The notes under the pieces were generated by a model, which worked only from the letters and a program-made list of their open reading frames with translations, had not been told where the DNA came from and did no database searches. The position numbers were made by a program, and so were the translations under genes. Below are positions 5,672-53,921 of a stretch of DNA of 64,000 bases, in pieces. Source of the DNA: Bacteroidales bacterium (lineage in GTDB: Bacteria; Bacteroidota; Bacteroidia; Bacteroidales; UBA1715); assembly GCA_017642535.1 (NCBI GenBank), contig JAGCOW010000060.1, positions 475 to 64,474 of the forward strand, written 5' to 3'. The stretch's first letter is position 1, and every line of letters begins with the position of its first letter.

Positions 5672-5831
5672 TTTATACGAAATAAATACGAACTACGGCA
5701 AAGGTAAGAGATTGTTCCGTTTTTTCCTACTCGTAGTACAAAGAATACGATAGCCAAGCACTGTTCATTCATTTAAAGACATTGTTTTTATTGTTTATAA
5801 TCCCCAAAGTTGCTTTTTTTTACAACTTTTG

Positions 5832-5839
5832 TATATTTG
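5832..5839 (+). promoter_or_regulatory. Bacteroidota-type -7 box (TAnnTTTG)
   Basis: TATATTTG lies 30 nt upstream of the ATG at 5870. Confidence 0.5.
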
Positions 5840-5869
5840 CAAAAACATTATAACTAATAGTTAGCAGCA

Positions 5870-6106
5870 ATGATAGACACATTATTTCAGTATTATTTGG
5901 AACGACAAGATGAACTTGTCAAAATGTACAATGGGAAATACATTGTTATTTCCCATGCAAAAGAAGTGAAGGCATACGATGACGAAAACAAGGCATACTT
6001 TGAATCTGTGAGAGATTATGGGGCTGGCAATTTTTTGTTACAATTATGCACTCCAGGTAAACAGGCATATACGCAATATTGTTATAGTCCACGAATAATT
6101 TTTTAA
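5870..6106 (+). CDS. small hypothetical protein (78 aa), possibly DUF5678-like
   Basis: ATG start preceded by a -7 box, and the stop is 1 nt before the next ATG. The pattern YNGKYIVISHAKEVKAYDDENKAYFESVRDYG resembles small proteins that partner archaeal/bacterial retropepsin-like proteases; this is from memory and unverified. Confidence 0.5.
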   Translation: MIDTLFQYYLERQDELVKMYNGKYIVISHAKEVKAYDDENKAYFESVRDYGAGNFLLQLCTPGKQAYTQYCYSPRIIF

Positions 6107-6107
6107 T

Positions 6108-6566
6108 ATGAATCCTGCTTCTTTTTCGCTGACTGACAATAAGTTATTGCCAGTTTTGGAAACAACGTGTGCTGTTAGCCAACCCTATAATAGCGTTTTC
6201 AACACAGAACATCCACCTGTATTTGATGTAAAAGGTATCTGGGACACGGGGGCTTCCTCTTCTGTTATATCAAGGAGAATGATTACTTCGATGGCGTTAA
6301 AACCGTTTTCAAAATGCACGATGTTTTATGCACAAGGAAATCTTTTGGTCAACATTTATAAAATCAACATAATACTACCCAATGGTGTGGAGATATCAAA
6401 TGTGACGGTTTCCGAAGGTAATTTATTGGATACGGATATCTTGATTGGTATGGATATAATAAATTTAGGAGATTTTGCCATAACGCATAGAAACAGTGGA
6501 ACTTTATTCTCATTTCAAATTCCGTCAACTCATCACATTGATTTTGGAAATTTTGATTCCTTTTGA
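6108..6566 (+). CDS. retropepsin-like (clan AA) aspartic protease
   Basis: The catalytic D-T-G-A-S motif (WDTGASSSVIS, nt 6243-6257) and the downstream ILIGMDIINLG motif are typical of single-lobe retroviral-type aspartyl proteases. Confidence 0.7.
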   Translation: MNPASFSLTDNKLLPVLETTCAVSQPYNSVFNTEHPPVFDVKGIWDTGASSSVISRRMITSMALKPFSKCTMFYAQGNLLVNIYKINIILPNGVEISNVTVSEGNLLDTDILIGMDIINLGDFAITHRNSGTLFSFQIPSTHHIDFGNFDSF

Positions 6567-6691
6567 AAAATTCAACCGCATATAAGTTATTTCCGTAAAA
6601 AAAAGACTATTTTTGGAAAGGTAATATACTGTAAAAACACATTTTAAAATGTCACGTAATAATCATTTTTATTCTCAATTTATTAATTACT

Positions 6692-7251
6692 ATGGAAATA
6701 GATAAAGAAAAACTTCAACAAGCTCAGTTAATAATAGACAACCTTGCTAATGGTATCAACCCCATAGATGGAGCGGCATTAAACAATATAGATGTGCTCA
6801 ATAATGTTAATATTATCCGTAGTTTTTTTATGCCTCACAAGTATTACAAGGATTAATTGATGGAGCAATAACAAGTCCAAAGAAAATACCAAATGCAAAA
6901 AAATCAACATTCCATTTGAACGACAACGACATATTGAATTTTGAGTTTTCAAAGACACCCATACCGTTATCTACCATGGTTGAAATAATGAACCAATATG
7001 TTGATGAAAATCAAATGAAAAAAATCTCTTTCTCTAAGTTGGCTGGTTGGTTGATAAGTCTTGATATATTAAAAACAGAAGATGATTCAAAAAAAGTTCC
7101 GACGGAAGCAGGTGAACAAATCGGATTAATCGTAGAAAATAGAGTTGGTAGTTATGGCAAGCCATATAGCGTTGTTTTATATGAAGAAAAAGCACAAAGA
7201 TTTATAATTGACAACATTGAGGGGTTATACGAATTTCTTAATGCAGAATAG
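6692..7251 (+). pseudogene. hypothetical ~186-aa gene interrupted by a frameshift at a T7 run (or expressed by -1 frameshifting)
   Basis: ORF A (ATG 6692 to TAA 6854-6856, 54 aa) and ORF B (open from 6823, track ORF 6916-7251) are in frames offset by -1. They join seamlessly at T7 (6823-6829), giving ...NIIRSFF|YASQVLQGLIDG.... Confidence 0.6.
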
Positions 7252-7269
7252 CACTTTACACCATATAAT

Positions 7270-10200
7270 TTATTTGTAATAACACGATTTGCATTCTGGT
7301 CTTTCAAAACAAATTCTATAGGAGATTGAGCCACATCTGTGGCAATAATTTTCGGAATAATATTCATAGCCACCATAACTATTCCATGTATAATAACAAC
7401 TTTTACAATATGGACTTTGTGGATTAAAAGGAATTTCCTTTCTGCATCGTATGCAATACCCTTCATGCTTAGATCTTGAGACCTTTTGAGTTGTTTCTGT
7501 TTTTTGATTTGTAGAAATATTATTATCTTCAGTATCATCAAAATTGAAAGATCCTTGTGTGTCAACAATATCCTTGGATTCACTTATAATTGTCCTCAAT
7601 TGTTCGTAAGATTTAACAAATGAATTTGGAATCATTAAGCATTTCCAACCTTTTTCTTTGCATATAGATATCTTTCTTGCGTCAGATTGTTCTCGACTTT
7701 TATCGCCGAAATGTTCTCCTCCATTTATTTCTATAACAACTTGTGGATATAAACGACCATTTCTTTTCTCGTATAATACACAATCAAATTCTGATTTTGA
7801 TTTTTTTAACTCCTCATCATCTACAAAAATTTCACTAAAAGCAACATTCCTTTTAACTTCAAACGACGTATGTACGGTACAAAAATGAGAGATTGTTTTA
7901 TAAAACTCGTTTTCATAGTAACTGCCATTTGATTTCCCCAATTCAATTTTTAAGACCTCATTTTCTGGCACATGTATCTCTCCATTGCTTTTTACATAAT
8001 TAATCAAATCCAACAAGTCGTTTGAGCAATTTTTTGATTTGTGTTTTATAGCATCTTCATCATATGCAATAACAAAACGTTTCTTTGCTCGTGTCTCTGC
8101 AACATTTATCAATTCAATATTATTTTTTATCCATTCAAAAGTTCGTTGACTTGTTTTTTTAGATAATGCTGTTGAAAATATAATCGTTTGTTTTTCCCCT
8201 CCTTGCATTGCGTGTATCGTACAACAATCAATATCCGACAGATTTCTTTGTTTCAATAATTGATTAAATAATTCCTTCTGTTTTACAAATGGTGTTATAA
8301 TTGTAGCATCGTGAACATTATTCCGTTCTATGTACTTAATAATTTCAACTGCTTCGTCATAAGCAGAGTTTTTCTCAACAACATTTTCATTCTTCACAGG
8401 AATACTAATTAGCGCTCCATCTTCTTTAATTGCAGATAAATTTAAACAGGAACTGTAGTATTTCTGATTTGCAAAATCGATTATTTTCTTTGCACATCTA
8501 TAATGATATGTCAAAACTACATATTGAGAAATAGAGTCATGATTTCTCATTATATCCAATATTGAGTTATGTTTGTAATCATAACCTTCGGGTATGGAAT
8601 ATTTTTTCCGTAACATTTTATTTATAGAATCTTCCAAGACTACAATAGGTTTTAATTGTTGTGGATCACCAACCAAAAGCAGGGAATCAGCCTTTGTTAT
8701 AGGTATTAGTGAATGAGCCACATTGCATTGACCAGCTTCATCCATCACAACTAAATCAAACATAAAATTTGGGGTTCCAAGACGTTGGGCTGAAATGTTT
8801 GTTGTAAAAATTATCGGAAAAACCTTAACGAATTTCTTCATATTTTCATCGTTTGCCAACCACTTATTGAACTCTTTTACCCTATCATCCTCGTTAGTAA
8901 GCGTGCAAATATTTTTTAGGTCATCATAATTCGAGTGATGTAGTGTTTTTATGCATTTTAATGATAAAAAGTAAAAGAACTGTTGTAATTTATAATCCTC
9001 ACTCAGCGGTGTGAACAACTCTTTAACCTCCTCGTTTTTAACTTCTTGATTTTTATTTAATTCCGAAATCAATTTTCTAATATTTTTTTCAATATTGTTG
9101 GTGAATTGATTGGAGTATTGCTTCACAAAATCATATAATTTTTGTGCATTATTTTTATATTCTGTGTTTCTTATGAAATTTTCTTGTCGTTTTGAGATTT
9201 CCTGTAATTTCTCATTTTTTTCATTTGTTGACAATTTGATTTTATTCATTTTGTCGTCGTCAGGTTCTCTATTTATATAAAAATCAAATAAATCCTTTAT
9301 CTGTGTAATAGCCTTTTTAACTTGTTCTTTGTTACCAAGACGAATGTATGGGAAAGGTATTTTTTCCCCATTATAAGTAACAGATAGTTTCTCAATTATT
9401 CCATCAACTGGTTTATTATTAGCGGAACAAATTAGTAAGGTTTTATCATTATAAAATCCATTAAGAACCACGTTAAGTATAGTTTGTGTTTTCCCTGTTC
9501 CTGGTGGTCCTTGCACAAATGTAACTGGTTGTTTCATTGCATTGTAAAGGACACGAGTCTGATCAACATTGATTTTATCATCACAAATTATAATTTGTGG
9601 CTCTTTCCGTCTTTTATCTCGACCATTTATTCTCCCTAAGAATGATTTTAATGGCACATTAAGATGTCCCTCTACAATTCTTTTGACAATTGCATTATAT
9701 GTTGCTTTCAAATCAACAGGAACTTCTCGCTCCAACAACACAATTTCTGGTCTTGTATTCGATATTTCACCATTTCTTAAATTGTTTTCAATGATAGCAA
9801 TGCTACTTTCTTCATCATTCCTAAAATTCTCAATAAATTCATCAACATCCATTTCCGTATATTGAAACAATGTTGATTTATACGCATCTTCATCTGCTAT
9901 TTTTTCTTCCAGTAAACGTTTATGGATAAACGATTTATTAAAACGTAGTGTTTCGTCTATGCTCAAACATTCATTTATTGGATTAAACATTACGTTGTAG
10001 TAGCAAACAATATAATGTTTATCTTGTTTATCTATTGAAAAGCGAGACAAAGCAAACTCTTCATAATTGCGTTTCTCATTTACAAACTGCCGATTCTTGA
10101 ATATTTTCAACACATAGTCTTTTTGTTCTTTATTCAGTTTGATTGATTTATTCTTCATCAACATAGACAGGTCTATGCCAGGAATTAAAAAACATTCTTT

Positions 10201-10587
10201 TTGATAAGGATCTTTATCATACCGATTACATGCTTCATAGTAGTCCAACAGATACTTCACATCGGGTTCGTAGTTTAACCACGAATAATTTCCCATGTTG
10301 TCATCTATTTTATTCAATAAAGAATCTGAAACTGTATAATGGTAGAATTCGACAATCTCAGCATATTGTATTTTATTAAGAAACAAATTCAGATTGTCTA
10401 AAACTTTATCTGAATCTAGAATAGGATTATAACCATGGCATTTAATTCGTGGATTTTCTTCCTCAAATTCTATATCATCTATTGCTATCCAGTACTTTGT
10501 TTCTTGTTCTTTTTGATTCAAATACACAATATAAACCCACTTCTCTTCTCGAATCGCTTGAAAAAGTTTTTTACAAATGTCTTGCAT
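7270..10587 (-). CDS. multidomain protein: unknown WYL-like N-domain + SF1 Upf1/DNA2-type helicase + Vsr/DUF2726-like endonuclease domain + C-terminal double zinc ribbon
   Basis: Helicase motifs are GPPGTGKT (9487-9510), DEAGQ (~8727-8744), LLVGDPQQLKP, TIHAMQGGEKQTIIFS and NVAETRAKKRFVI. The nuclease-like signature is FDCVLY...VVIEINGGEHF...GWKCLMIP. Four CxxC pairs lie in the last ~65 aa. I prefer the ATG at 10587 over the upstream TTG at 10602. Confidence 0.85.
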   Translation of the reverse strand: MQDICKKLFQAIREEKWVYIVYLNQKEQETKYWIAIDDIEFEEENPRIKCHGYNPILDSDKVLDNLNLFLNKIQYAEIVEFYHYTVSDSLLNKIDDNMGNYSWLNYEPDVKYLLDYYEACNRYDKDPYQKECFLIPGIDLSMLMKNKSIKLNKEQKDYVLKIFKNRQFVNEKRNYEEFALSRFSIDKQDKHYIVCYYNVMFNPINECLSIDETLRFNKSFIHKRLLEEKIADEDAYKSTLFQYTEMDVDEFIENFRNDEESSIAIIENNLRNGEISNTRPEIVLLEREVPVDLKATYNAIVKRIVEGHLNVPLKSFLGRINGRDKRRKEPQIIICDDKINVDQTRVLYNAMKQPVTFVQGPPGTGKTQTILNVVLNGFYNDKTLLICSANNKPVDGIIEKLSVTYNGEKIPFPYIRLGNKEQVKKAITQIKDLFDFYINREPDDDKMNKIKLSTNEKNEKLQEISKRQENFIRNTEYKNNAQKLYDFVKQYSNQFTNNIEKNIRKLISELNKNQEVKNEEVKELFTPLSEDYKLQQFFYFLSLKCIKTLHHSNYDDLKNICTLTNEDDRVKEFNKWLANDENMKKFVKVFPIIFTTNISAQRLGTPNFMFDLVVMDEAGQCNVAHSLIPITKADSLLLVGDPQQLKPIVVLEDSINKMLRKKYSIPEGYDYKHNSILDIMRNHDSISQYVVLTYHYRCAKKIIDFANQKYYSSCLNLSAIKEDGALISIPVKNENVVEKNSAYDEAVEIIKYIERNNVHDATIITPFVKQKELFNQLLKQRNLSDIDCCTIHAMQGGEKQTIIFSTALSKKTSQRTFEWIKNNIELINVAETRAKKRFVIAYDEDAIKHKSKNCSNDLLDLINYVKSNGEIHVPENEVLKIELGKSNGSYYENEFYKTISHFCTVHTSFEVKRNVAFSEIFVDDEELKKSKSEFDCVLYEKRNGRLYPQVVIEINGGEHFGDKSREQSDARKISICKEKGWKCLMIPNSFVKSYEQLRTIISESKDIVDTQGSFNFDDTEDNNISTNQKTETTQKVSRSKHEGYCIRCRKEIPFNPQSPYCKSCYYTWNSYGGYEYYSENYCHRCGSISYRICFERPECKSCYYK

Positions 10588-10610
10588 AATAAAAAGAAAC
10601 AAAATACAAA

Positions 10611-10618
10611 CAAATATA
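10611..10618 (-). promoter_or_regulatory. Bacteroidota-type -7 box (TAnnTTTG on minus strand)
   Basis: Plus-strand CAAATATA is TATATTTG on the minus strand, 24 nt upstream of the ATG at 10587. Confidence 0.45.
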
Positions 10619-10705
10619 ACTAAACATCTAATACAAAGTATTACAATCAGTTATTTGTTTTGTGTAAAATCTTCCGATTTTGTTTGGCGAAAGAATAAAT
10701 ACCCG

Positions 10706-11374
10706 TTATTTCCCTTCAAAATATTTCAAGAAACAATTTGGCACTGGTGATTCAAAAATCAACTGCTCGTGCGTTACGGGATGAACAATCACCAAGCGGT
10801 TGTTGTGGAGCATCAATCGTTTTTCGGGAGAGGTTTTCGCTCCATATTTCTTATCGCCTGCAATTGGCCAGCCGTGTTCCGACAAATGCACGCGAATTTG
10901 ATTTTTTCGTCCCGTAAGTATCTGAACGTCAAGCATTGCCATATTTTTATTTTCGGCAACAACCTTAAATCGCGTAATCGCCAATTTTCCAATTTCCGTA
11001 TTGCGGGTGGAATGGACAAACATTGCAGAATTTTCGGTAAGATACGAACGGATTTCTGCTTTTTTTGGATTGGGAACTGCCTCTGTCACAGCAACATACC
11101 GTCGGTCTAAAATGTAATCGTTCCAATTGTCACGCAACAAATGCTGGATTTCTTCGTCTTTGGCAAACATCAGTATTCCCGATGTGAACTGGTCGAGTCG
11201 GTGGCATACGAACGCATCGCCACGGGGATTTTTCCGTTTTACGTATTCCCGAACCAGATGCCACGCATTTTCGTCCTTTGCCGTGGGATGGTTCACCGAC
11301 AGCAATCCCGACGGCTTTTCAATCACGACAAGCCATTTGTCTTCGTAAATGATATGCAGTTTCTTACTCGCCAC
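10706..11374 (-). CDS. RluA-family pseudouridine synthase
   Basis: HRLDQFTSGILMFAK (catalytic Asp motif) and GRKNQIRVHL are present. Confidence 0.85.
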   Translation of the reverse strand: MASKKLHIIYEDKWLVVIEKPSGLLSVNHPTAKDENAWHLVREYVKRKNPRGDAFVCHRLDQFTSGILMFAKDEEIQHLLRDNWNDYILDRRYVAVTEAVPNPKKAEIRSYLTENSAMFVHSTRNTEIGKLAITRFKVVAENKNMAMLDVQILTGRKNQIRVHLSEHGWPIAGDKKYGAKTSPEKRLMLHNNRLVIVHPVTHEQLIFESPVPNCFLKYFEGK

Positions 11375-21252: not shown

Positions 21253-24200
21253 TTATTTCAACAAGACTTGCAACATTGATTGTTTGCCGTTGATTGTAAC
21301 AACCACGTAGTACATTCCTTTTACGTTGCCTGTCAAATCAATTTCCTTGGTAAATGTTCCTGCAGCCGATTCTGTTGATTTATAAACCAAACGACCTGAT
21401 TCAGAATAGATTGCAATCGAACATGTTTCTTCAGTATTCGTTTCAAAAGAAATGGTAAACAATCCTGTTGTCGGATTTGGATATGCTGTCATTGTTTGAA
21501 CGGCAACATCAGAAATTGCCACACCTCCGCCTCCTCCACCTTGTGAATTAACCGTCAATACGAATTGAGCAGATGTTCTGTCTCCCGCATCATCGATTGC
21601 ATACACGGTAATGATTTGCGAACCAGTCCAGTTCGGGTTAACGACTGAAATGGTAGCAAGACCAGAACTATTCGTCATAATAGAGATATTATCTCCACCT
21701 GCATCAATCTGCCAACGTAAATTTGACGTATTATCATCTGAGAAATACGATGCCAAATTAATGTTTGTAAATGTTTCTCCTGTGGTAATTGTTTGATCTG
21801 GAATTTTCTTTTCCAGAACAGGAGGTTCGTTCTGTTCTACGACGCTACATGGAATTGTTACCATTGCACCGCCAGTGGCTGTTACCGTAACAAGTGCCTG
21901 TCCGGTACCGACAGCTACAATTCTGCCATTGATAATAGATATGACATTCGAATTAGAACTTGTCAGCGTATAAGTTGGAGGATCAGCATCGGCTGGTTCG
22001 TATGTAAAGGACAATGTCTTGATTTGTCCCGGAGTCAACGTGAGAGACGTTTCTGAAGGAATAATCTCTGTAATCGATGTCTTTACAACAGTTACAACAC
22101 ACGTTGCCGAAGTGCCAGAATTATCATTTACCGTTGCCGTAATTGTTGCCACACCTTCGGCACGTGCCGTAATGGTACCAGTTGATGAAACGTAAGCAAC
22201 GTCGGTATTGTTAGACTGCCAAGTTACCGTCTTACAAGACGCATTCGATGGTTCTATCGTCGCTCTCAATTGTTTTTGTTCATCGACAAGCATTTCCATC
22301 GTTGAATAATTGAGAGAAAGTCTTGTCGCATAAATTGGATTGACAACAACCGACAAGGTAGTAGTCACACTTGGAGACGATACCGAAGCTACAGACAACA
22401 CAACCGAACCTGCAGCGACACCTGTAAGTATGTCATTTTCCATAGTTGCTACAACAGCATCACCATACGTTGCTGAAGTTCTTGTGATAGTCCACTTCAA
22501 CGACTTGTTGGTTGCATTTGCAGGATAGAAAATTATTTGCGGAGCCAAATCAACTGGCTCGCCAATATTGACATATACGACACTACCATTCGGATAAATC
22601 ATCTGAACAGGAATTGCCGTTGCCTGAACCGTCACGTTTGCCGTCGCTTTCTTTCCATTTGCAGCTGTGGCAGTTACTTTCGTAGTTCCTTCTGCTATAC
22701 CAGTAATCTTACCAGTATTTGTATTTATCGTCGCAACAGATTCATTTACAACCGACCATGTGATTGTTTTGTTTGTCACATTATTTGGCGTAATCAAGGC
22801 AGATAAAGTCTGTGATTCGCCAACGGCAAGCGACACATCGGAAATTGAAACTGATTCAACTTCTATTTCTTTCACTTCTACCATACAAGAGCCATATTTA
22901 CCATTAGCCGAAGTCGCCGTGATTGTTGCCGTACCTATACCATTAGCAGTTACTGTACCATACTGGTCAACAGAAGCAACAGAGATGAGACTCGATGACC
23001 ATACAAGCGATTTATTCGTCGCATTTGATGGAGTAATCGTCGGCTCTAACGATGACATTTCTCCTATGTGCATTGTCAACGATGCAGGTTCAATAGACAC
23101 ATTTGAGACAGTTACAACATTCAACGTAACCTTCACATTACACGTTGCAGCTATACCATTTGATGTAACAGCTGTTATGACAGCATCACCAACCGATTTG
23201 GCAGTAATCTTACCATATACATCTACCGAAACAATTGACGCATCAGAAGAAGACCAAGTAACCGACTTATTCGTTGTTTTTTCTGGCAATACCGTTGCAA
23301 CAAGTTGTTGTTGCTCATTTGTCAGCAACGTTGCATTGGTCGTATTCAACGAAATTGAAGTTGCCAACATCGGATTTACCTTGACTGATACCGTCTTTGT
23401 CAATCCATTACCCGTTTCTACTTCTATCAAAGTTGAACCAGCAGAAATTCCTTTTATAACACCATTATTTACCGTAGCTACACTTTCATCTTTCGATGAC
23501 CAGGTCAATACAGTGTCGGTAACATTTGACGGAGTCAACGTCGTTGTGATTTCCAACGTTTCATCTATTTCCAACGTACAACTTGTAGTCGACAAGGTAA
23601 TGGAAGTTGGTTCAATATCTTGAACAGTCAAGATACATTTCTCAGTTATTGCATTCGCCGATGTAGCAGTTATTTGCGTAGTACCAGCTTTTTTCGCTGT
23701 TACGACACCATTAGCGTCAACCGTGGCAATCGATTCATTAGAGGAAGCCCAAACAATCGTTTTGTCCGTCGCATTATCTGGATAAACTGTAGCATAGAGT
23801 TGTTCCGTACCATACACTCGCATTGAAAGATTTGACTCACTCAGCACAATCGAAGATACATCGACTGGTTTTGCTGTTATGACGCACGATGCAGCAACAC
23901 CATTATGTGCAGTTGCCGTAATCGTTACCGTACCTGCAGCAAGTATAGTGACATATCCATTTTCGACCGTTGCAATGCTTCTATTCGATGTCGTCCATGT
24001 CAGTTCTGTATTTGAAGCATCGTCAGGCAAAACCGTCGCAGCAATCTGGAATTTATCGCCAATATATTTTACAACAGAAGATTGAGTAAATTCAACCGAC
24101 GATACAGGAACTATATCCTTAATAATTTTCAGATTGACAATCTTTTGGAATGTTGAGTATCCATCGGAAACTGTCACGGTAATAGTTGTATTTCCTTCTG

Positions 24201-27200
24201 CTACAGGAGTAATCTTACCTGTTCTAGAAACAGTTGCATATGCTGTATTTGAACTTTCAAACAACGTATATTCTATACAAGCATTCGACGGTGTTGTCGT
24301 AACATTTATCTGTGCCGAACCTGTTTTGGTAATTTCAATAGATTCGTTGTCAACGCTTATCGATGTGATTTTAGTTGAACAGCCAGTCAAAACGACAGGA
24401 ATTGTAGCCGTTTTCTTCGTACCATACATATCGGTAACTTCTGCTGTGACGGTAACTGTTTTAGTTCCATACATCAAATTATTTGTCAACTCACCATCCG
24501 CATCTATTGAAGCATCAGAACCAGAAACACTCCAAACTATTGATTGAGTTGTAACTGCCGTTGGATTCAAAACCAACAATTTAGACAAATCTGCAGATTG
24601 GTTGATTGCCAACGAAACAGACTCTTGCGAGAACGAAGCCGAAGAAATTGACTTGTATGCGACAGTAACATTTACTTCTTTCGTCACATTACCCGAAGAT
24701 GCCGTAATGACAGCATCACCTTGACCAACAGCCGTAACAACACCCGTAGTCGAAACTGTTATTTTCGTCGGATCTGACGAAGCCCATGTGACATTCTTAT
24801 TGGTTGCATTGTCAGGCAAAACCTCGGCCGTCAATATATGCGTCTCACCGATTTCCATTGAAAGCGATGCCGGCGTTACGTTAATAGACTCTACAGCAAC
24901 AACATCCGACTCAACATTGACTGTAATCACCTTAGTGATATGGTTATACGTTTCAACTAGGATTGTCGCTGTTCCCTCGGCAACAGCCATTATCAAACCA
25001 TTCTCCGAAACAGTCACTTTCGATTCGTCCGATGATGACCATGTTAAATCTCTCTTCGTGGCATCTTCAGGTACAAAATCAACCGTAATTTGTTGCTCTC
25101 CACCGACAGTCAATGTAACATCTTCCGTACTTAATATTATATCTGTCAGGTATTTATCAGAAATCTGAATCGTGTAACTTCCTGAAACACTGCTTGCAGC
25201 CGTTGCTGTAATAGTGACATTTCCACTTGCCAATGCCGTAACGACACCCTTATCACTAACGGTTGCTATTGTTTCGTCAGACGAAGACCATGTAATCTTC
25301 TTATTCTCAGCATCTTGAGGAGTTATTTCCGCAGTCATTGTTTGTGTTGTTCCGACATACATCATCTTTGCCTGAGGAGTCACAACAACATCGGTAACGA
25401 CCTTTTCTGCGACAGTCAAAACACATTCAGCATAAGAATTTACATCCTGATTTGCAGTGGCACGAATCACCGTAGTACCATATTTTAATGGGGTAATTTG
25501 ACCATCTTCTACTGTAGCAACCGTTTCATCAGATGACGACCAAAGAATTTCTTCATCACAAGGATTATCCGTTGTGATTGCTGCCGTCAGCGTAAAACTT
25601 GAAGTCTTGTAAATTGTTTTTTCGGTCTCACTTATCACAACATCAACAGCTCCTGAATTACAATCCGAAGAAACATTTACCGTACAAGTCGCCAAAGTGA
25701 CGCCATTACCTGTCGTTGTAGCCGTAATTGTTGCAGAACCAACACCCATTGCATTCACAATACCGTTAGAAACCGTTGCTACCTGTGTATTTGAAGATGT
25801 CCATGTCACAACATTATCTTCGGTACACTCATCGTTTGGTGTGATTGTAGCAATTAACTGCTCGTACTGACCTTTAACCAAAGCCAAAGACGATTTATTC
25901 AAACTCAAAGTTATATCGCCAGAGCAATCTTTTGAAACATTTACTCTACAAACGGCCGTCTTAACCGAGAAGCCGTCATTCACCGAAATGGTTATGTCGC
26001 TATATCCCTTGGTTGTCAAGGCTGTCACCTCACCAACTTCCGAAACCGTTGCGACAGATTTGTCGGAACTTGAATAAGTTACCGACTTCACGCAAGCATT
26101 AGATGGCGTCAATGAATACATCACTTGTACTTTCTCACCATAGAACAAACTCAAATTCGCATTAGTGCTAACCAATGCCACCTCAGTAGGACAACCAGTA
26201 AGAGTTGCCTCGATTGTCTTTGTATATTCATTACCACTCTTATCTGTCACAACAACAGTGATTGTAACGTCCTCGGTTCCGTATGCCAATTTATTTGTCA
26301 AAACTCCGACACCGTTTACCGTAGCCGATTGAACATCGGAAACAGACCAATCGTATGATTCTATCGTAGCATTACTTGGCGAGAGCGACAAGTAACTTGC
26401 CAAGTTTATAGTTGCACCTTCCGAAACATAAACCTTTGATTGTGAGAACGAAACAGCTGTCAAAGGAACTTTCAACTCTTCTACTGCGAACGTAATAGAA
26501 ACAATAGAACTTGCCCCTTCGCTATCGGTAGCACGAACCTTTACTATGTCAGAGCCAATCCATTCGTCATCCTTCACACTTACCGACAAGACGCCCGAAG
26601 TAATTGTCACATTAAGATATTCCGACGGATTTACCAATTCGTATGTCAATGCCGATGATTCTGTAGCATCGTCGGTTGCAAAATTCGTCAAATTAATATT
26701 TGTGAACGAACCGCCTTGTTGAATTGTTTGAGCGGGTATTACAGCCCAGACTGGTGCTGCATTTATTGTAATTTCAACATCTTTACCGAAACGAATCTCG
26801 TCAATCGTAATTGTTCCCGAAGCCGAAGCAGAAGAACCTTTATCGAAATAGAACTTCATACCATATATTTCAGACGAATTTGCCGTGCCAAATTTGCCAG
26901 TAAAATCGAATGTATATGTTGTATATTCGTGACCAGCAGAACATTGTTCAGCAGCAACCGACGTTGCGGTCGTATTACCATTTGCATCGAACAATTCCAC
27001 GTAAAGCGATGTTGCAACGGTTGTTTTCAATGTTACCGAAGCATACGGATTTGAAGACAAATCCAATATCTTATAATCCTCATCTACAAGATTATACGTA
27101 ATTGCATCCGAAGCAGCTGACGTTCTATTATAGAGTACTTGCATATCGCCGCCGTTGTAATTCAACGTATACAAATCCGAAGATTCGCTCCAACCTTTCA

Positions 27201-30200
27201 CAGCAGGACGAATCACGTAATCAGTATAACCATCAACAACCGAAGGCGTTACAACATATTGAATTTCATATTCGTTGACTGTGCTCAAATCCTGAGAAAT
27301 CACCTTCACGTATGCCTTTCCGTCAAGACTCGAAGCCTGTGTAACTTCCAAATATGCTGCATCATCAGCAGCCACAGCCGAAACAGTTGGAATTGTCTCC
27401 ATTCCAGCCGGCAATGTCACAGTATAAGAATGAATGTTTTGATCAAATGACAATGACAATCCGTTATTCAACGATATTGATTGCAATTCCGCATTGTCAG
27501 ACAATGTAACAACGGTTTGAGATCCTGTAGCAACTCTCGGCCCTATTACCAAATTGTCTATGTATGCAGCTTTCTTACGAGGTTTCTTAGTATCGTCTGG
27601 ACCATACAAACCAAATCTAACTGCCACTATTGCTGTTTTTGTTATATAACTTGCAGTTGAAAAATTCAATGTTATGGTTCCCGTTGTAGAAGAACTTATC
27701 GTTTCTGATGGTGTAATATAATTCGACACATTACCATACACATCAACCAAAGCAACATTGAATGGGAAATATTCATTATCTACTGTTACACCATTCAATG
27801 TTTTTCCATTTGCTACGCCTACAATATCTAAAGAAACATTCAATGCAGAAGAACCGTCCAATACATAACCTGTTGGAAGATGATATTCTACATAACCATA
27901 ACTTTGTTCTGTTCCTTTTTGATCCAATGCCACACCTAATTTATATTCTGTTGTAGTTACCATTCCTGGCCCCATTCCAGAAGTTGTCGTTATCGTTTCC
28001 CAACTAACTTTGTGAATTTCATTATTAGTACTTACATTACCAATACCTGTTGTAAAATCGTCAGACCATTCTGTCACAATATTTTGCGACGACGCGGCTG
28101 CATAAGTTATCTCATATTGTTTCGTAGAACCATTTTCTGCTGTAACAGTAATAACAGTAGCTTCAGCAACCGTTTGTGCATAGTCAATGTCAACCATTGC
28201 ATTCGGGTCGGTAGCAATAGCAGTAATATATGGCACGTACGTCGTGTATAATCTTGCGACATAATTATATACTGTTGGTGAGAATGCAGGTGAAAGTTCA
28301 CCGCCGCCTAGTTCAAGTGTAGCAAGCGTTGCATCCGATGAAGCAGCAATCTTGAAACTTACCATATATGTCTCACTATTATAACCATTTGCTGAAATCA
28401 CCTTCACAGTTGCTTGGTCACTCAACGATTGTGCCTGAGTAACCGTTACCGAGGCTCTTTCGTGAACCGTCGTAGCAGAAATAGTAGGTACCTGCGTTGT
28501 CCCTGCTGGCAAAACGCATTCGTACATCAAAACCGACGTAGAAACCGTAGGTGTAATCTCGCCAATTGAAGCCGTCAACGTCTTGAGAGCAACACTCGAA
28601 TTCACCGATTGATTTTTCTGTTTGTATGTAGGAGACATTTCCTCCCAGTTATCAGCCATTTCTGGATAACGTCCATAACTTACATTTTCAGTTTGAACCC
28701 CAAATGAAACATTATCAATTACAACAAGTTCTCCATCAGCAGTAATTTGGCTCAAAACCACGTCTTCGCCTGTTGTTCCATTCAATGAGAAATCAAGGTG
28801 ATTTGCCCCAAGTTCTGGCTTTCCGTCAGCCCAGAACGTAATCCATTTCCCCGCCTGAACAGTTGTCAATGCTGAATTTGTCGTTGGTATTCTATATCGT
28901 AATGAGTAATTCAAAGAGTCGCTGATGAACAAACCGCCAAGATCTATCGCAGAACTCGTTCCATTATAAAACTCAATATAATCGCTATATGCACCCGTTT
29001 CGTCAGCCACAATCGAAGTATTTACAGCAAGGACTTCGTTGATTGTTATACCCGAAACTTCGTGTACTGTCGCCGTATTTGCATTCTTTGCATTTGGTGT
29101 CGGTGTCAGCAGGTAACGGAACGTTGATGATTCATTGGGATAGCGTCCATACGAGATATTTTCACCTTGATTTGAGTACGAAATCTGGTCAATAACATAG
29201 TTTTCAGAACCACGCAACTGCACAATTGCAATGTCACCTTTTTCGGCAGGCAACTTGAAATCAACGTGATTCGGATTGATTGCGGTCTGCTTGTCACACC
29301 AGAAAATATAATATCCACCAGCTTTAATCGTCGTTTTCGTCGGTTCACCTTTCGGAATCATATATTTATTCAGGTTATTCAAGTCGTTTGTCACGAACAA
29401 ACCACCCAAGTCAATATCCTTGTTTGTTGTATTATAAATTTCAAACCAATCGGCATACGAACCTGTTTCCTCTCGTACCGTGGAACTGTTTTTCGACATA
29501 AATTCATTGATTACCAAACCATCAACGTATGTTTCAGACATTATTGTATTTGTAGCCCTTGGTGTTGTCTTTGTAAAAATAATCATGTTGGAACTACCAT
29601 CAGGATAACGTCCGTATGACACATCGGTATTTTGCTGTGAATATCTTATTTTATCCAAAACTGTCATAGAACCCGCACTGTTCTTTTGAGAAAGAATGAT
29701 TACACCCGAAGAACGGTCCAACTTAAATGGAAGATGCAATGCACCGTCCTGTGATTCATTATCAGCCCAGAATAACACATAACCTCCTGCAGGAATCGTA
29801 GTTTCCTCCATCGCTCCATACGGAATCTTATACATCTCAAGATTTGTGCTGTCATCCGACAAATAAAGTCCGGCTAAATCGACAGCTGAATTGCCACCAT
29901 TATATATTTCAATCCAGTCTTCTGTTTTGTTGTTATCACTTAAAATATCAGTGCTGTTCGATGTAAGAAATTCGTTAATGTACAAATTCTTTTCCGTCGA
30001 ACGGTTTGAAAATACCGCAGTTATCGACGTATTATTTGTAATTGTTACAAAATACTCTGGGTCAGTTGACAATGTTGTATTTCCATTTTTCCAAGCCGAA
30101 AATTGATAGCCATTTTTCGGTTCTGCCGTCAGACGTATCGGGCGTTCTTTCTGATGTGCTGCGGAATAGTTGCTAGGAACTGGGATTGAACATACATACA

Positions 30201-53754: not shown

Positions 53755-53921
53755 GGAGAAAAAAATACCCTTTGACTACATAAAATTGCAAAATATGTCA
53801 TACATTTGCCCCGTCAAGTGGAAAGATTTGAGTTGATTGCAACCACACAAAAAAATGCTAAAACAGCAAGTGCTGCATTTTACCATTCTTTCTCATTGTT
53901 TTATTATTAAATGTTTAAACT

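What the first reader, a model, noticed from the sequence alone, without database searches (positions are those of the whole stretch)
7270..10587. 1,105-aa fusion of sensor-like N-domain, SF1 helicase, Vsr/DUF2726-like nuclease and double zinc ribbon: candidate single-gene nucleic-acid defence
The ORF shows four parts. (1) The N-terminal ~330 aa have no helicase motifs and open with a WYL-like stretch (AIREEKWVYIVYLNQKEQETKYWIAIDDI). (2) A full Upf1/DNA2-type SF1 motif set follows: GPPGTGKT 9487-9510, DEAGQ ~8727-8744, LLVGDPQQLKP, TIHAMQGGEKQTIIFS and NVAETRAKKRFVI. It carries a ~150-aa K/E/N-rich coiled-coil-like insertion between motifs Ia and II. (3) Next is an endonuclease-fold signature of the Vsr/DUF559/DUF2726 type (FDCVLY...VVIEINGGEHF...DARKISICKEKGWKCLMIP, ~7690-7800). 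(4) The tail has four CxxC pairs (CIRC, CKSC, CHRC, CKSC; ~7270-7470), which I read as two C4 ribbons of the topoisomerase zinc-finger kind. From memory, helicase plus nuclease in one polypeptide is the design of described anti-phage proteins (Nhi, Hhe, Hna, type II Mokosh). I cannot map this domain order, with its extra N-domain and Zn ribbons, onto any named system. The gene sits in an AT-rich accessory island, which fits a defence or foreign-DNA restriction role.
Basis: partly seen in the sequence, partly recalled or inferred. Interest (0 to 1): 0.8.

Follow-up and report, generated by a model that had tools for sequence, protein, structure and literature searches.

The report
WYL–helicase–Vsr-nuclease accessory gene
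A horizontally acquired gene in a gut Bacteroidales genome encodes one large protein that joins a WYL-like sensor barrel, an Upf1-type helicase motor and a Vsr-type DNA-cutting domain; it represents a widespread, uncharacterised family that is probably a nuclease-swapped cousin of known anti-phage helicase-nucleases, but a defence role is not yet shown.

Summary
- The first ~85 residues fold like a WYL barrel.
- Residues 336-870 are a complete Upf1-like SF1B helicase.
- Residues ~885-1005 are a Vsr/EDxHD/DUF2726-type nuclease that keeps the full catalytic set.
- The tail carries two CxxC...CxxC ribbons. These are not topoisomerase-type and occur only in the five closest relatives.

The N-domain–helicase–nuclease body defines a coherent family: 461 clusters at 50% identity, ~1,000 aa each, spread patchily across five phyla.

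The gene is an insertion. A ~92%-identical relative has an empty site, with rluA abutting the C_GCAxxG gene. Alleles are mosaic. In three lineages the gene travels with a 187-aa convergent partner, which is frameshifted here.

The gene is not novel in kind. Type II Mokosh, Hhe/ProA and CoCoNuT III-B CnuH use the same helicase-plus-nuclease design. It fails the defining features of each, so it is a new variant.

The defence role is plausible but unproven. The immediate neighbours of 33 homologues are mostly housekeeping genes, and the local hotspot is a surface-glycan locus, not a defence island.

The parts
7270..10587 (-). Whole gene: 1,105-aa WYL-like / Upf1-like SF1B helicase / Vsr-EDxHD-type nuclease / double Zn ribbon (stop codon 7270-7272)
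10588..10633 (-). Conserved 46-nt upstream region that moves with the gene. It contains GTTATATTTG, which fits the Bacteroidota -7 promoter consensus TAnnTTTG (own knowledge).
   Evidence: Similarity to L001 and L006 starts at window 10633; sequences. The sigma-70 scan was not above chance and is not the right model for Bacteroidota.
9583..10587 (-). N-terminal domain (residues 1-335), specific to this family. Residues ~15-85 (10333-10545) form a WYL-like SH3 beta-barrel. Residues 100-335 have no recognisable fold match.
   Evidence: Model pLDDT 78.5; WYL hits in PDB and BFVD; no Pfam or PADLOC hit; the profile finds 461 clusters, nearly all with the domain N-terminal in ~1,000-aa proteins; invariant Y22 and W33
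7978..9582 (-). Upf1-like SF1B helicase core (residues 336-870) with motifs I, Ia, II, III, V and VI invariant. Includes the helical K/E/N-rich insertion at residues 431-560 (8908-9297).
   Evidence: AAA_11 and AAA_12; IGHMBP2, Sen1, Upf1 and DNA2; invariant G360-T367, D616, E617, Q620, G640, D641, Q644, R833; composition
7573..7935 (-). Vsr/EDxHD/DUF2726-type PD-(D/E)xK nuclease module (residues ~885-1005). Catalytic set: E892, D935, E953-x-N955, H959, D969 (plus K972).
   Evidence: DUF2726 23.9 bits and DUF559 15.4 bits; topology; REase-fold hits; profile alignment to 3R3P, IEINGG against IEVNGV; catalytic residues of I-Bth0305I and Vsr from PMC3239194; conservation
7273..7467 (-). Tandem pair of C4 zinc ribbons (YCxRC-x12/13-CKSCYY, twice; residues 1041-1105), preceded by a low-complexity linker (1006-1040). 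Present only in the five closest relatives.
   Evidence: only DZR_2 at 17 bits and no zf-C4_Topoisom; poorly modelled
6692..7251 (+). Convergent 187-aa companion gene, here a pseudogene. A 1-nt deletion at a T-run (~6823-6829) splits it into 54-aa and 111-aa ORFs. It ends 18 nt from the helicase stop.
   Evidence: tblastn 82-91% to the intact L001 gene in two frames; the same frameshift in three other samples; the shared cassette is window 10633..6682
5672..10715 (.). The whole inserted low-GC segment, absent from the empty-site relative L114. It holds a 78-aa ORF (5870-6106), a retropepsin-like ORF (6108-6566), the companion pseudogene and the helicase-nuclease.

Best explanation
The gene is a horizontally acquired, self-contained helicase-nuclease effector. 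It most likely acts against foreign nucleic acid (phage, plasmid or ICE DNA). It is a nuclease-swapped relative of type II Mokosh and a functional analogue of Hhe and of CoCoNuT III-B CnuH.

Proposed mechanism:
1. The N-terminal WYL-like barrel, with the family-specific residues 100-335, binds single-stranded nucleic acid or a small ligand. This licenses or recruits the enzyme. (Inferred from WYL proteins PIF1, DriD and CapW.)
2. The Upf1-like SF1B motor uses ATP to translocate 5'->3' along ssDNA or RNA. (Domain identity is shown. Polarity and substrate are inferred from the family.)
3. The C-terminal Vsr/EDxHD-type domain, with an intact Mg2+/His catalytic set, nicks or cleaves DNA reached by the motor. 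(The residues are shown. Activity is inferred.)
4. In the Bacteroidales clade, two added Zn ribbons give an extra nucleic-acid or protein contact. (Inferred.)

The gene has its own promoter-like upstream element and needs no fixed partner. The 187-aa convergent gene is an optional accessory and is dead in this genome.
For: Architecture:
- A complete Upf1-like motif set, invariant across the family.
- The catalytic residues E892, D935, E953, H959 and D969 are at least 90% conserved down to 29% identity. N955 is at least 90% conserved in the closer set.
- These residues map one-to-one onto the experimentally defined I-Bth0305I/Vsr residues.
- The N-terminus has a WYL fold.
- The best PADLOC matches are Mokosh MkoC (3.7e-45), MkoA and Hhe, all on the helicase core.

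Mobility and accessory status:
- An empty site exists in L114.
- The gene sits at a different locus in every lineage examined.
- GC is 0.31 against 0.40 for the surroundings.
- The distribution across five phyla is patchy.
- Bacteroidales and Clostridia members are ~50% identical.
- Alleles are mosaic: 99-100% identical ends flank a 60-77% identical body.
- The 90% cluster is small (7 members) compared with flanking core genes (15 and 129 members).

Defence-type neighbours in some loci:
- Fic, RhuM-Fic, AAA_14/DUF4143 and BsuBI R-M.
- Fic.
- Drt2, DrmMII and PDC-S05.
- A distant plasmid relative sits next to SNF2, N6-MTase and TIR genes.

No full-length homologue was found in 50,697 phage records.
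Against: - No experiment supports a defence role.
- No PADLOC, NCBIfam or Pfam model of a validated defence protein covers more than the helicase core.
- Among 33 homologue loci, the +/-2 neighbours span 145 Pfam families and are mostly housekeeping. Clear defence genes appear in only a few. A distal control set from the same loci also holds R-M methylases.
- Many copies are lone genes between core genes.
- The local hotspot carries glycan-biosynthesis genes in relatives.
- The nuclease fold-search E-values are weak, at least 0.012. The DUF2726 score is just under its threshold.
- The WYL assignment rests on a predicted structure only.
Confidence: 0.55

Rival explanations
1. It is an accessory genome-maintenance or RNA/DNA-surveillance enzyme rather than an immune gene. 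In this reading it is a Dna2/Upf1-like helicase-nuclease that processes ssDNA flaps, R-loops or stalled forks, or damaged DNA sensed through the WYL-like domain. It would be useful but dispensable, and so patchy.
For: - The solved relatives are cellular enzymes: IGHMBP2, Sen1, Upf1 and DNA2, which is itself a nuclease-helicase.
- WYL domains occur in DNA-damage regulators (PafBC, DriD) and in bacterial PIF1 helicases.
- Vsr is a repair nuclease.
- Most neighbours are housekeeping genes.
- Within a species the gene sits stably at one locus.
Against: - An empty site exists in a close relative.
- There is no conserved synteny between lineages.
- GC is low.
- The gene has moved between phyla.
- Alleles are mosaic.
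- Some loci have Fic, R-M, DRT or TIR neighbours.

These features are unusual for repair genes.
Confidence: 0.2
2. It is a selfish or element-borne gene. One option is a toxin-like or addiction module whose 187-aa convergent partner modulates it. Another is a factor used by a mobile element in competition with other elements. EDxHD nucleases are known as homing endonucleases.
For: - A sharply bounded two-gene cassette is shared at 77% DNA identity between unrelated loci.
- The companion recurs with P0002. Contig lengths suggest it also recurs with P0003.
- A companion homologue sits directly upstream of another large SF1 helicase.
- Allele ends are mosaic.
- The nuclease's nearest characterised relative by profile is a homing endonuclease.
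- Distant relatives occur on plasmids.
Against: - The companion is absent from most family members.
- The companion is frameshifted here while the helicase stays intact, so it is neither an essential antitoxin nor an essential partner.
- No integrase, transposase, terminal repeats or target duplication flank the insert.
- There is no intron or intein context.
- Other companion homologues stand alone.
Confidence: 0.15
3. In this particular genome the gene is a decaying relic of an old acquisition with no current function.
For: The adjacent companion is a pseudogene in all samples. One metagenome strain shows the helicase split into 508-aa and 312-aa ORFs.
Against: - The 1,105-codon ORF is intact in AT-rich DNA and keeps every invariant family residue.
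- It is 99-100% conserved across independent samples.
- The large 'insertion' in L012 is a scaffold gap of Ns.
Confidence: 0.08

Closest known systems
Type II Mokosh (MkoC), Millman et al. 2022
   Same: A single polypeptide with a Upf1-like (COG1112, AAA_11/AAA_12) helicase followed by a C-terminal nuclease. MkoC is the best PADLOC hit (3.7e-45, helicase core). The layout is described.
   Different: The Mokosh nuclease is PLD-family. Here it is a Vsr/EDxHD/DUF2726-type PD-(D/E)xK domain with no PLD hit. The MkoC model matches only up to its position ~971 of 1136. The WYL-like N-domain and the Zn ribbons have no PADLOC counterpart.
Hhe / ProA single-gene anti-phage proteins (DUF4011-helicase-Vsr-like nuclease-DUF3320)
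   Same: SF1 AAA_11/AAA_12 helicase and a Vsr-like nuclease in one protein. Partial hits to Hhe and ProA models. A plasmid DUF4011 protein aligns through residues 577-1011.
   Different: Scores are far below the equivalog cutoffs: 50.7 against 2000, and 65.6 against 1500. There is no DUF4011 or DUF3320. The protein is about half the size and has a different N-domain.
CoCoNuT type III-B CnuH (Bell et al., eLife 2024)
   Same: A Upf1-like helicase with a coiled-coil helical insertion, fused directly to a Vsr-like PD-(D/E)xK nuclease.
   Different: CnuH works in an operon with McrB-like (CnuB) and McrC-like (CnuC) proteins. No such genes flank this gene or the homologues examined. The N-terminal domains differ.
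WYL-containing bacterial PIF1 helicases and WYL regulators (BrxR, CapW, DriD, PafBC)
   Same: A WYL-type beta-barrel attached to an SF1B helicase (PIF1) or used as an ssDNA/ligand sensor in defence and damage responses.
   Different: The Pfam WYL model is not matched. Here the barrel is N-terminal to a Upf1-like motor, not a Pif1-like one, and no wHTH domain is evident.
Vsr / I-Bth0305I (EDxHD homing endonuclease, PDB 3R3P)
   Same: The same catalytic constellation and spacing, E...D...E-x-N...H...D.
   Different: Those are small stand-alone or NUMOD-fused nucleases with no motor domain. Sequence similarity is marginal (E = 0.25).

Membership tests
Upf1-like SF1B helicases (AAA_11/AAA_12) | Helicase motifs I, Ia, II, III, V and VI, and Pfam AAA_11 plus AAA_12 above threshold | tested here: met
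   AAA_11 130.8 bits and AAA_12 51.3 bits, both against a cutoff of 27; the motifs are invariant; PDB relatives are IGHMBP2, Sen1, Upf1 and DNA2
Vsr / EDxHD / DUF2726-DUF559 nuclease clade of PD-(D/E)xK | Catalytic residues equivalent to Vsr E25, D51, H64/N, H69 and D97 | tested here: met
   E892, D935, N955 (with E953), H959 and D969 are conserved. They align to I-Bth0305I E170, D196, N208, H213 and D222.
Vsr / EDxHD / DUF2726-DUF559 nuclease clade of PD-(D/E)xK | Restriction-endonuclease-like alpha-beta-beta-beta-alpha-beta fold | tested here: met
   The predicted core has pLDDT 73-94 with that topology. Most top Foldseek hits are REase-fold nucleases, but the E-values are at least 0.012.
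Pfam DUF2726 (PF10881) | Score at or above the gathering threshold of 24.7 bits | tested here: inconclusive
   19.0 bits for the whole protein and 23.9 bits for the isolated module. Several ~60%-identical homologues carry the PF10881 annotation.
WYL domain (PF13280) | Match to the Pfam WYL profile | tested here: not met
   No Pfam family at E <= 10 for residues 1-335
WYL domain (PF13280) | WYL-type SH3-like beta-barrel fold | tested here: met
   Foldseek hits to CapW, BrxR, PafBC and DriD with probability 1.0 and rmsd 2.7-4.7 A over ~85 residues; phage 'WYL domain containing' proteins. This rests on a predicted model.
Type II Mokosh | Upf1-like COG1112 helicase domain | tested here: met
   MkoC 3.7e-45 and MkoA 9.2e-38
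Type II Mokosh | C-terminal PLD-family nuclease | tested here: not met
   No PLD family in Pfam at E <= 1 for the whole protein or at E <= 10 for the C-module. The C-module is Vsr-type.
Hhe / ProA | Equivalog-level match, which implies DUF4011 and DUF3320 | tested here: not met
   Hhe_antiphage 50.7 bits against 2000; ProA 65.6 bits against 1500; only residues ~590-715 match
CoCoNuT type III-B | Operon with McrB-like GTPase (CnuB) and McrC-like (CnuC) genes | tested here: not met
   The window neighbours are rluA and the companion. None of the homologue loci or the 124 proximal neighbours shows McrB or McrC among the listed families.
Nhi | Match to an Nhi profile | tested here: inconclusive
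   No Nhi model appears among the PADLOC hits at E <= 1. I could not verify that this PADLOC version holds Nhi models.
zf-C4_Topoisom zinc finger | Match to the Pfam profile | tested here: not met
   The tail gives only DZR_2 at 17.3 bits (cutoff 27) and C1_1 at 13.7 bits
Anti-phage defence genes (operational definition) | Enrichment next to known defence genes | tested here: inconclusive
   33 loci were examined. The +/-2 neighbours are mostly housekeeping. Few strong defence hits appear (Drt2, DrmMII, PDC-S05, RhuM). The distal control also holds R-M methylases. The sample is small and there is no genome-wide background.
Anti-phage defence genes (operational definition) | Protection phenotype | not testable with these tools
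   Needs an experiment

The most novel reading that the evidence does not exclude
This is the founding example of an unrecognised, widespread single-gene immune family of gut anaerobes, built as a WYL-like sensor, an Upf1-like motor and a Vsr/EDxHD nuclease. It would be a nuclease-swapped sister of type II Mokosh that usually sits alone between housekeeping genes. That placement would make it invisible to defence-island guilt-by-association. Its alleles would diversify by recombination between conserved gene ends.
Probability: 0.4. Interest if true: 0.6.

Novelty: new variant of a known kind. Interest (0 to 1): 0.45.

Why it matters
If it is a defence gene, it adds a common gut-microbiome family (461 clusters at 50% identity, in Bacteroidota, Bacillota, Mycoplasmatota, Actinomycetota and Spirochaetota) to the helicase-nuclease class of immunity.

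It would show that the nuclease on a Upf1-like motor can be exchanged between PLD, Vsr and HEPN types. It would also give a concrete case of a WYL-type sensor wired directly to an effector rather than to a transcription factor.

It would further illustrate that some defence genes are not island-associated, which matters for discovery pipelines. If it is a repair enzyme instead, it would be a bacterial Dna2-like activity with a Vsr nuclease.

Tried and rejected
- A sequence-profile search of the N-domain against the PDB gave only chance-level hits.
- A homology search with the Zn tail returned no candidates, so the origin of the tail is unresolved.
- An exact-pattern scan of metagenomes for the alternative L015 junction found nothing.
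- An exact look-up of the C_GCAxxG protein found nothing. Searches failed on coordinates.
- The apparent 137-nt insertion that 'pseudogenises' the helicase in L012 contains Ns. I rejected it as a scaffolding artefact.
- No target-site duplication or terminal inverted repeats mark the insert. A 9-mer (GGAAATAAC on the minus strand) recurs at 10705, 6586 and 5945, but I could not tie it to a mechanism.
- The sigma-70 promoter scan was not above chance.
- I rejected the companion as an obligate partner. It is absent from most loci, stands alone elsewhere, and is frameshifted here.
- I rejected membership of Mokosh II, Hhe/ProA and CoCoNuT on their defining features.
- PHROGs gave only a helicase-core match to a family of unknown function.


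Full report
OBSERVATION

The window holds an uninterrupted ORF at 7270..10587 on the minus strand (1,105 aa). It lies in a GC trough of 0.30-0.32 against ~0.40 elsewhere. An ORF of this length in AT-rich DNA, conserved at 99% in independent metagenomes, is a real gene.

ANATOMY

(i) Residues 336-870 are a complete Upf1-like SF1B helicase. Pfam gives AAA_11 at 1e-37 and AAA_12 at 1.4e-13. The nearest solved proteins are IGHMBP2, Sen1, Upf1/Nam7 and DNA2. All motif residues are invariant in a 33-sequence alignment reaching 29% identity. The K/E/N-rich stretch 431-560 (38% K+E+N) lies where this helicase family carries its helical stalk. The CoCoNuT paper describes the same coiled-coil insertion in CnuH.

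(ii) Residues ~885-1005 are a Vsr/EDxHD/DUF2726-type nuclease.
- DUF2726 scores 23.9 bits on the isolated module against a threshold of 24.7, and DUF559 scores 15.4 bits.
- Several homologues carry PF10881.
- The AlphaFold core is confident, with alpha-beta-beta-beta-alpha-beta topology.
- The Foldseek top list is almost entirely restriction-endonuclease-fold proteins: BstEII, D212, 3IJM, VRR_NUC, TnsA, I-Bth0305I and NGO0050. The E-values are weak.
- A family profile aligns IEINGG to IEVNGV of I-Bth0305I.
- The paper on that enzyme lists the catalytic set E170, D196, an acidic residue at the Vsr F62 position, N208, H213 and D222, equivalent to Vsr E25, D51, H64, H69 and D97.
- The family keeps E892, D935, E953-x-N955, H959 and D969 with matching spacing. 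The active site looks intact.

(iii) Residues 1-335 have no Pfam, PADLOC or PDB-sequence match. The model (pLDDT 78.5) has an N-terminal beta-barrel. Its best structural matches are WYL-domain proteins, both cellular (CapW, BrxR, PafBC, DriD) and viral. Residues 100-335 match nothing. An exhaustive profile search finds this N-domain in 461 clusters at 50% identity. Nearly always it sits at the N-terminus of ~1,000-aa proteins. It is therefore specific to this family.

(iv) The tail (1041-1105) is a tandem pair of CxxC-x12/13-CxxC ribbons. It occurs only in the five closest relatives. It gives only a sub-threshold DZR_2 hit and no topoisomerase zinc-finger hit.

FAMILY AND MOBILITY

More than 1,000 homologues of ~1,000 aa cover residues 1-~1010. 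Full-length members occur in species representatives of Bacillota, Mycoplasmatota, Actinomycetota (Coriobacteriaceae), Spirochaetota and Bacteroidota. The host of the window is an uncultured gut Bacteroidales lineage.

Within that species every long contig has the gene after rluA. In L114, a ~92%-identical relative, rluA is followed within ~16 nt by the C_GCAxxG gene. The window segment ~5672-10715 is therefore an insertion. Other relatives carry sulfatase-family transferases, glycosyltransferases, LicD and a cytidylyltransferase at the same junction. The hotspot is a variable surface-glycan locus, not a defence island.

Homologues sit in unrelated contexts in every lineage. No integrase and no terminal repeats were found. 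Similarity between the window and the P0002 locus runs from 46 nt upstream of the start codon to just beyond the start of a convergent 187-aa gene. That upstream stretch contains a Bacteroidota-type TAnnTTTG element (own knowledge).

This companion is conserved with P0002. It is missing from most members. Distant homologues stand alone or sit next to a UvrD/RQC helicase. In the window species the companion carries a 1-nt deletion at a T-run in every sample.

Alleles are mosaic. The L001 and L006 genes are 99-100% identical upstream and in the last ~300 nt, but only 60-77% identical in the body.

IS IT DEFENCE?

For:
- The architecture is that of validated helicase-nuclease effectors.
- The best PADLOC hits are MkoC, MkoA and Hhe.
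- The gene is accessory, mobile, mosaic and low in GC.
- Some loci have Fic, RhuM, DUF4143-ATPase, R-M, DRT2, DrmMII or PDC-S05 neighbours.
- A distant plasmid relative lies beside SNF2, N6-MTase and TIR genes.
- Phages do not carry the gene.

Against:
- The neighbour test on 33 loci (124 proximal genes) gave 145 Pfam families, mostly housekeeping. A distal control from the same loci also contained R-M methylases.
- Many copies are lone genes between core genes.

I therefore rate the defence reading at ~0.55. The rivals are an accessory genome-maintenance enzyme (~0.2), a selfish or element-linked module (~0.15) and a local relic (~0.08).

COMPARISON WITH KNOWN SYSTEMS

- Type II Mokosh is defined as a Upf1-like helicase followed by a C-terminal PLD nuclease. 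The helicase criterion is met. The PLD criterion is not.
- The Hhe and ProA equivalog thresholds are missed by more than an order of magnitude.
- CoCoNuT III-B CnuH has the same helicase plus Vsr fusion, but it depends on McrB/McrC partners that are absent here.
- WYL-PIF1 helicases share the idea of a WYL barrel on an SF1B motor.

The gene works like these systems but is a member of none. I found no paper that combines Upf1-like and DUF2726.

VERDICT

This is a new variant of a known kind: an uncharacterised, widespread WYL-like / Upf1-like helicase / Vsr-type nuclease family. Here it also carries a clade-specific double Zn ribbon and a dead companion gene. Interest is moderate (0.45). The design principle is familiar. 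The family is large, untested and atypically located, and it offers clear experiments.

Noticed in passing
window 6692-7251 (+), frameshift at ~6823-6829: A 187-aa convergent companion gene of unknown function (small family, 31 clusters, no Pfam) is split by a 1-nt deletion at a T-run (T7 here against TTTTTTCT in L001). The deletion is identical in three other samples of the species.
   Followed up: yes
L001 9800-14050 vs L006 7760-11700: Mosaic alleles. The ~150 nt upstream and the last ~300 nt (linker plus Zn tail) are 94-100% identical between two loci whose gene bodies are only 60-77% identical. This suggests recombination at conserved gene ends.
   Followed up: partly
window 5870-6566 (+): A 78-aa ORF sits immediately upstream of a 152-aa retropepsin-like aspartyl protease (gag-asp_proteas, 2e-07; weak PADLOC PDC-M08B hit). 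Both lie inside the same inserted low-GC segment. Function unknown.
   Followed up: partly
L112 1988-8778; L113 10661-16626; L114 2451-7865: Related strains carry different cargo at the same hotspot: three tandem sulfatase-family (LTA-synthase-like) genes plus GT4, or GT8 plus LicD plus cytidylyltransferase. This is a strain-variable surface-glycan locus next to rluA.
   Followed up: partly
L029 6589-10860 (also L030, L031): A 245-aa homologue of the companion (~40% identity) lies directly upstream of a 1,144-aa UvrD/RQC-type helicase in a Clostridia MAG. This is a second association of the small protein family with a large SF1 helicase.
   Followed up: no
window 10705-10713, 6586-6594, 5945-5953: The 9-mer GTTATTTCC (GGAAATAAC on the minus strand) occurs at the rluA stop and island boundary, ~90 nt beyond the cassette end, and inside a hairpin near the 78-aa ORF. 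It may mark module boundaries or may be chance.
   Followed up: partly
L024 (P. distasonis plasmid NZ_OY725763.1) 1-9232: A distant (27%) helicase-plus-nuclease relative annotated 'AAA domain-containing protein' follows SNF2, N6-methylase and TIR-domain genes, a defence-island-like array. E. coli pB39_V has a similar relative next to PAPS-reductase and ParB-N genes.
   Followed up: partly
window 53812-53871 (+): A SAM-II riboswitch scores above the Rfam gathering score (64.3 bits against 44).
   Followed up: no
window 21253-32319 (-): A giant 3,688-aa secreted protein with LTD, CotH and many Big_2 repeats, per the Pfam annotation of the identical gene in L010.
   Followed up: no
window 10706-11374; L018 11468-12538: Pseudouridine-synthase genes (rluA-like and rluD-like) flank the helicase-nuclease in two unrelated lineages. 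Another lies 7.6 kb away in L017. This is probably coincidence.
   Followed up: no
L015 1256-1417: A ~96%-identical strain diverges from the window exactly at the rluA stop and encodes an unrelated minus-strand gene there. The contig is too short to identify it, and an exact-pattern metagenome scan found no longer copy.
   Followed up: partly
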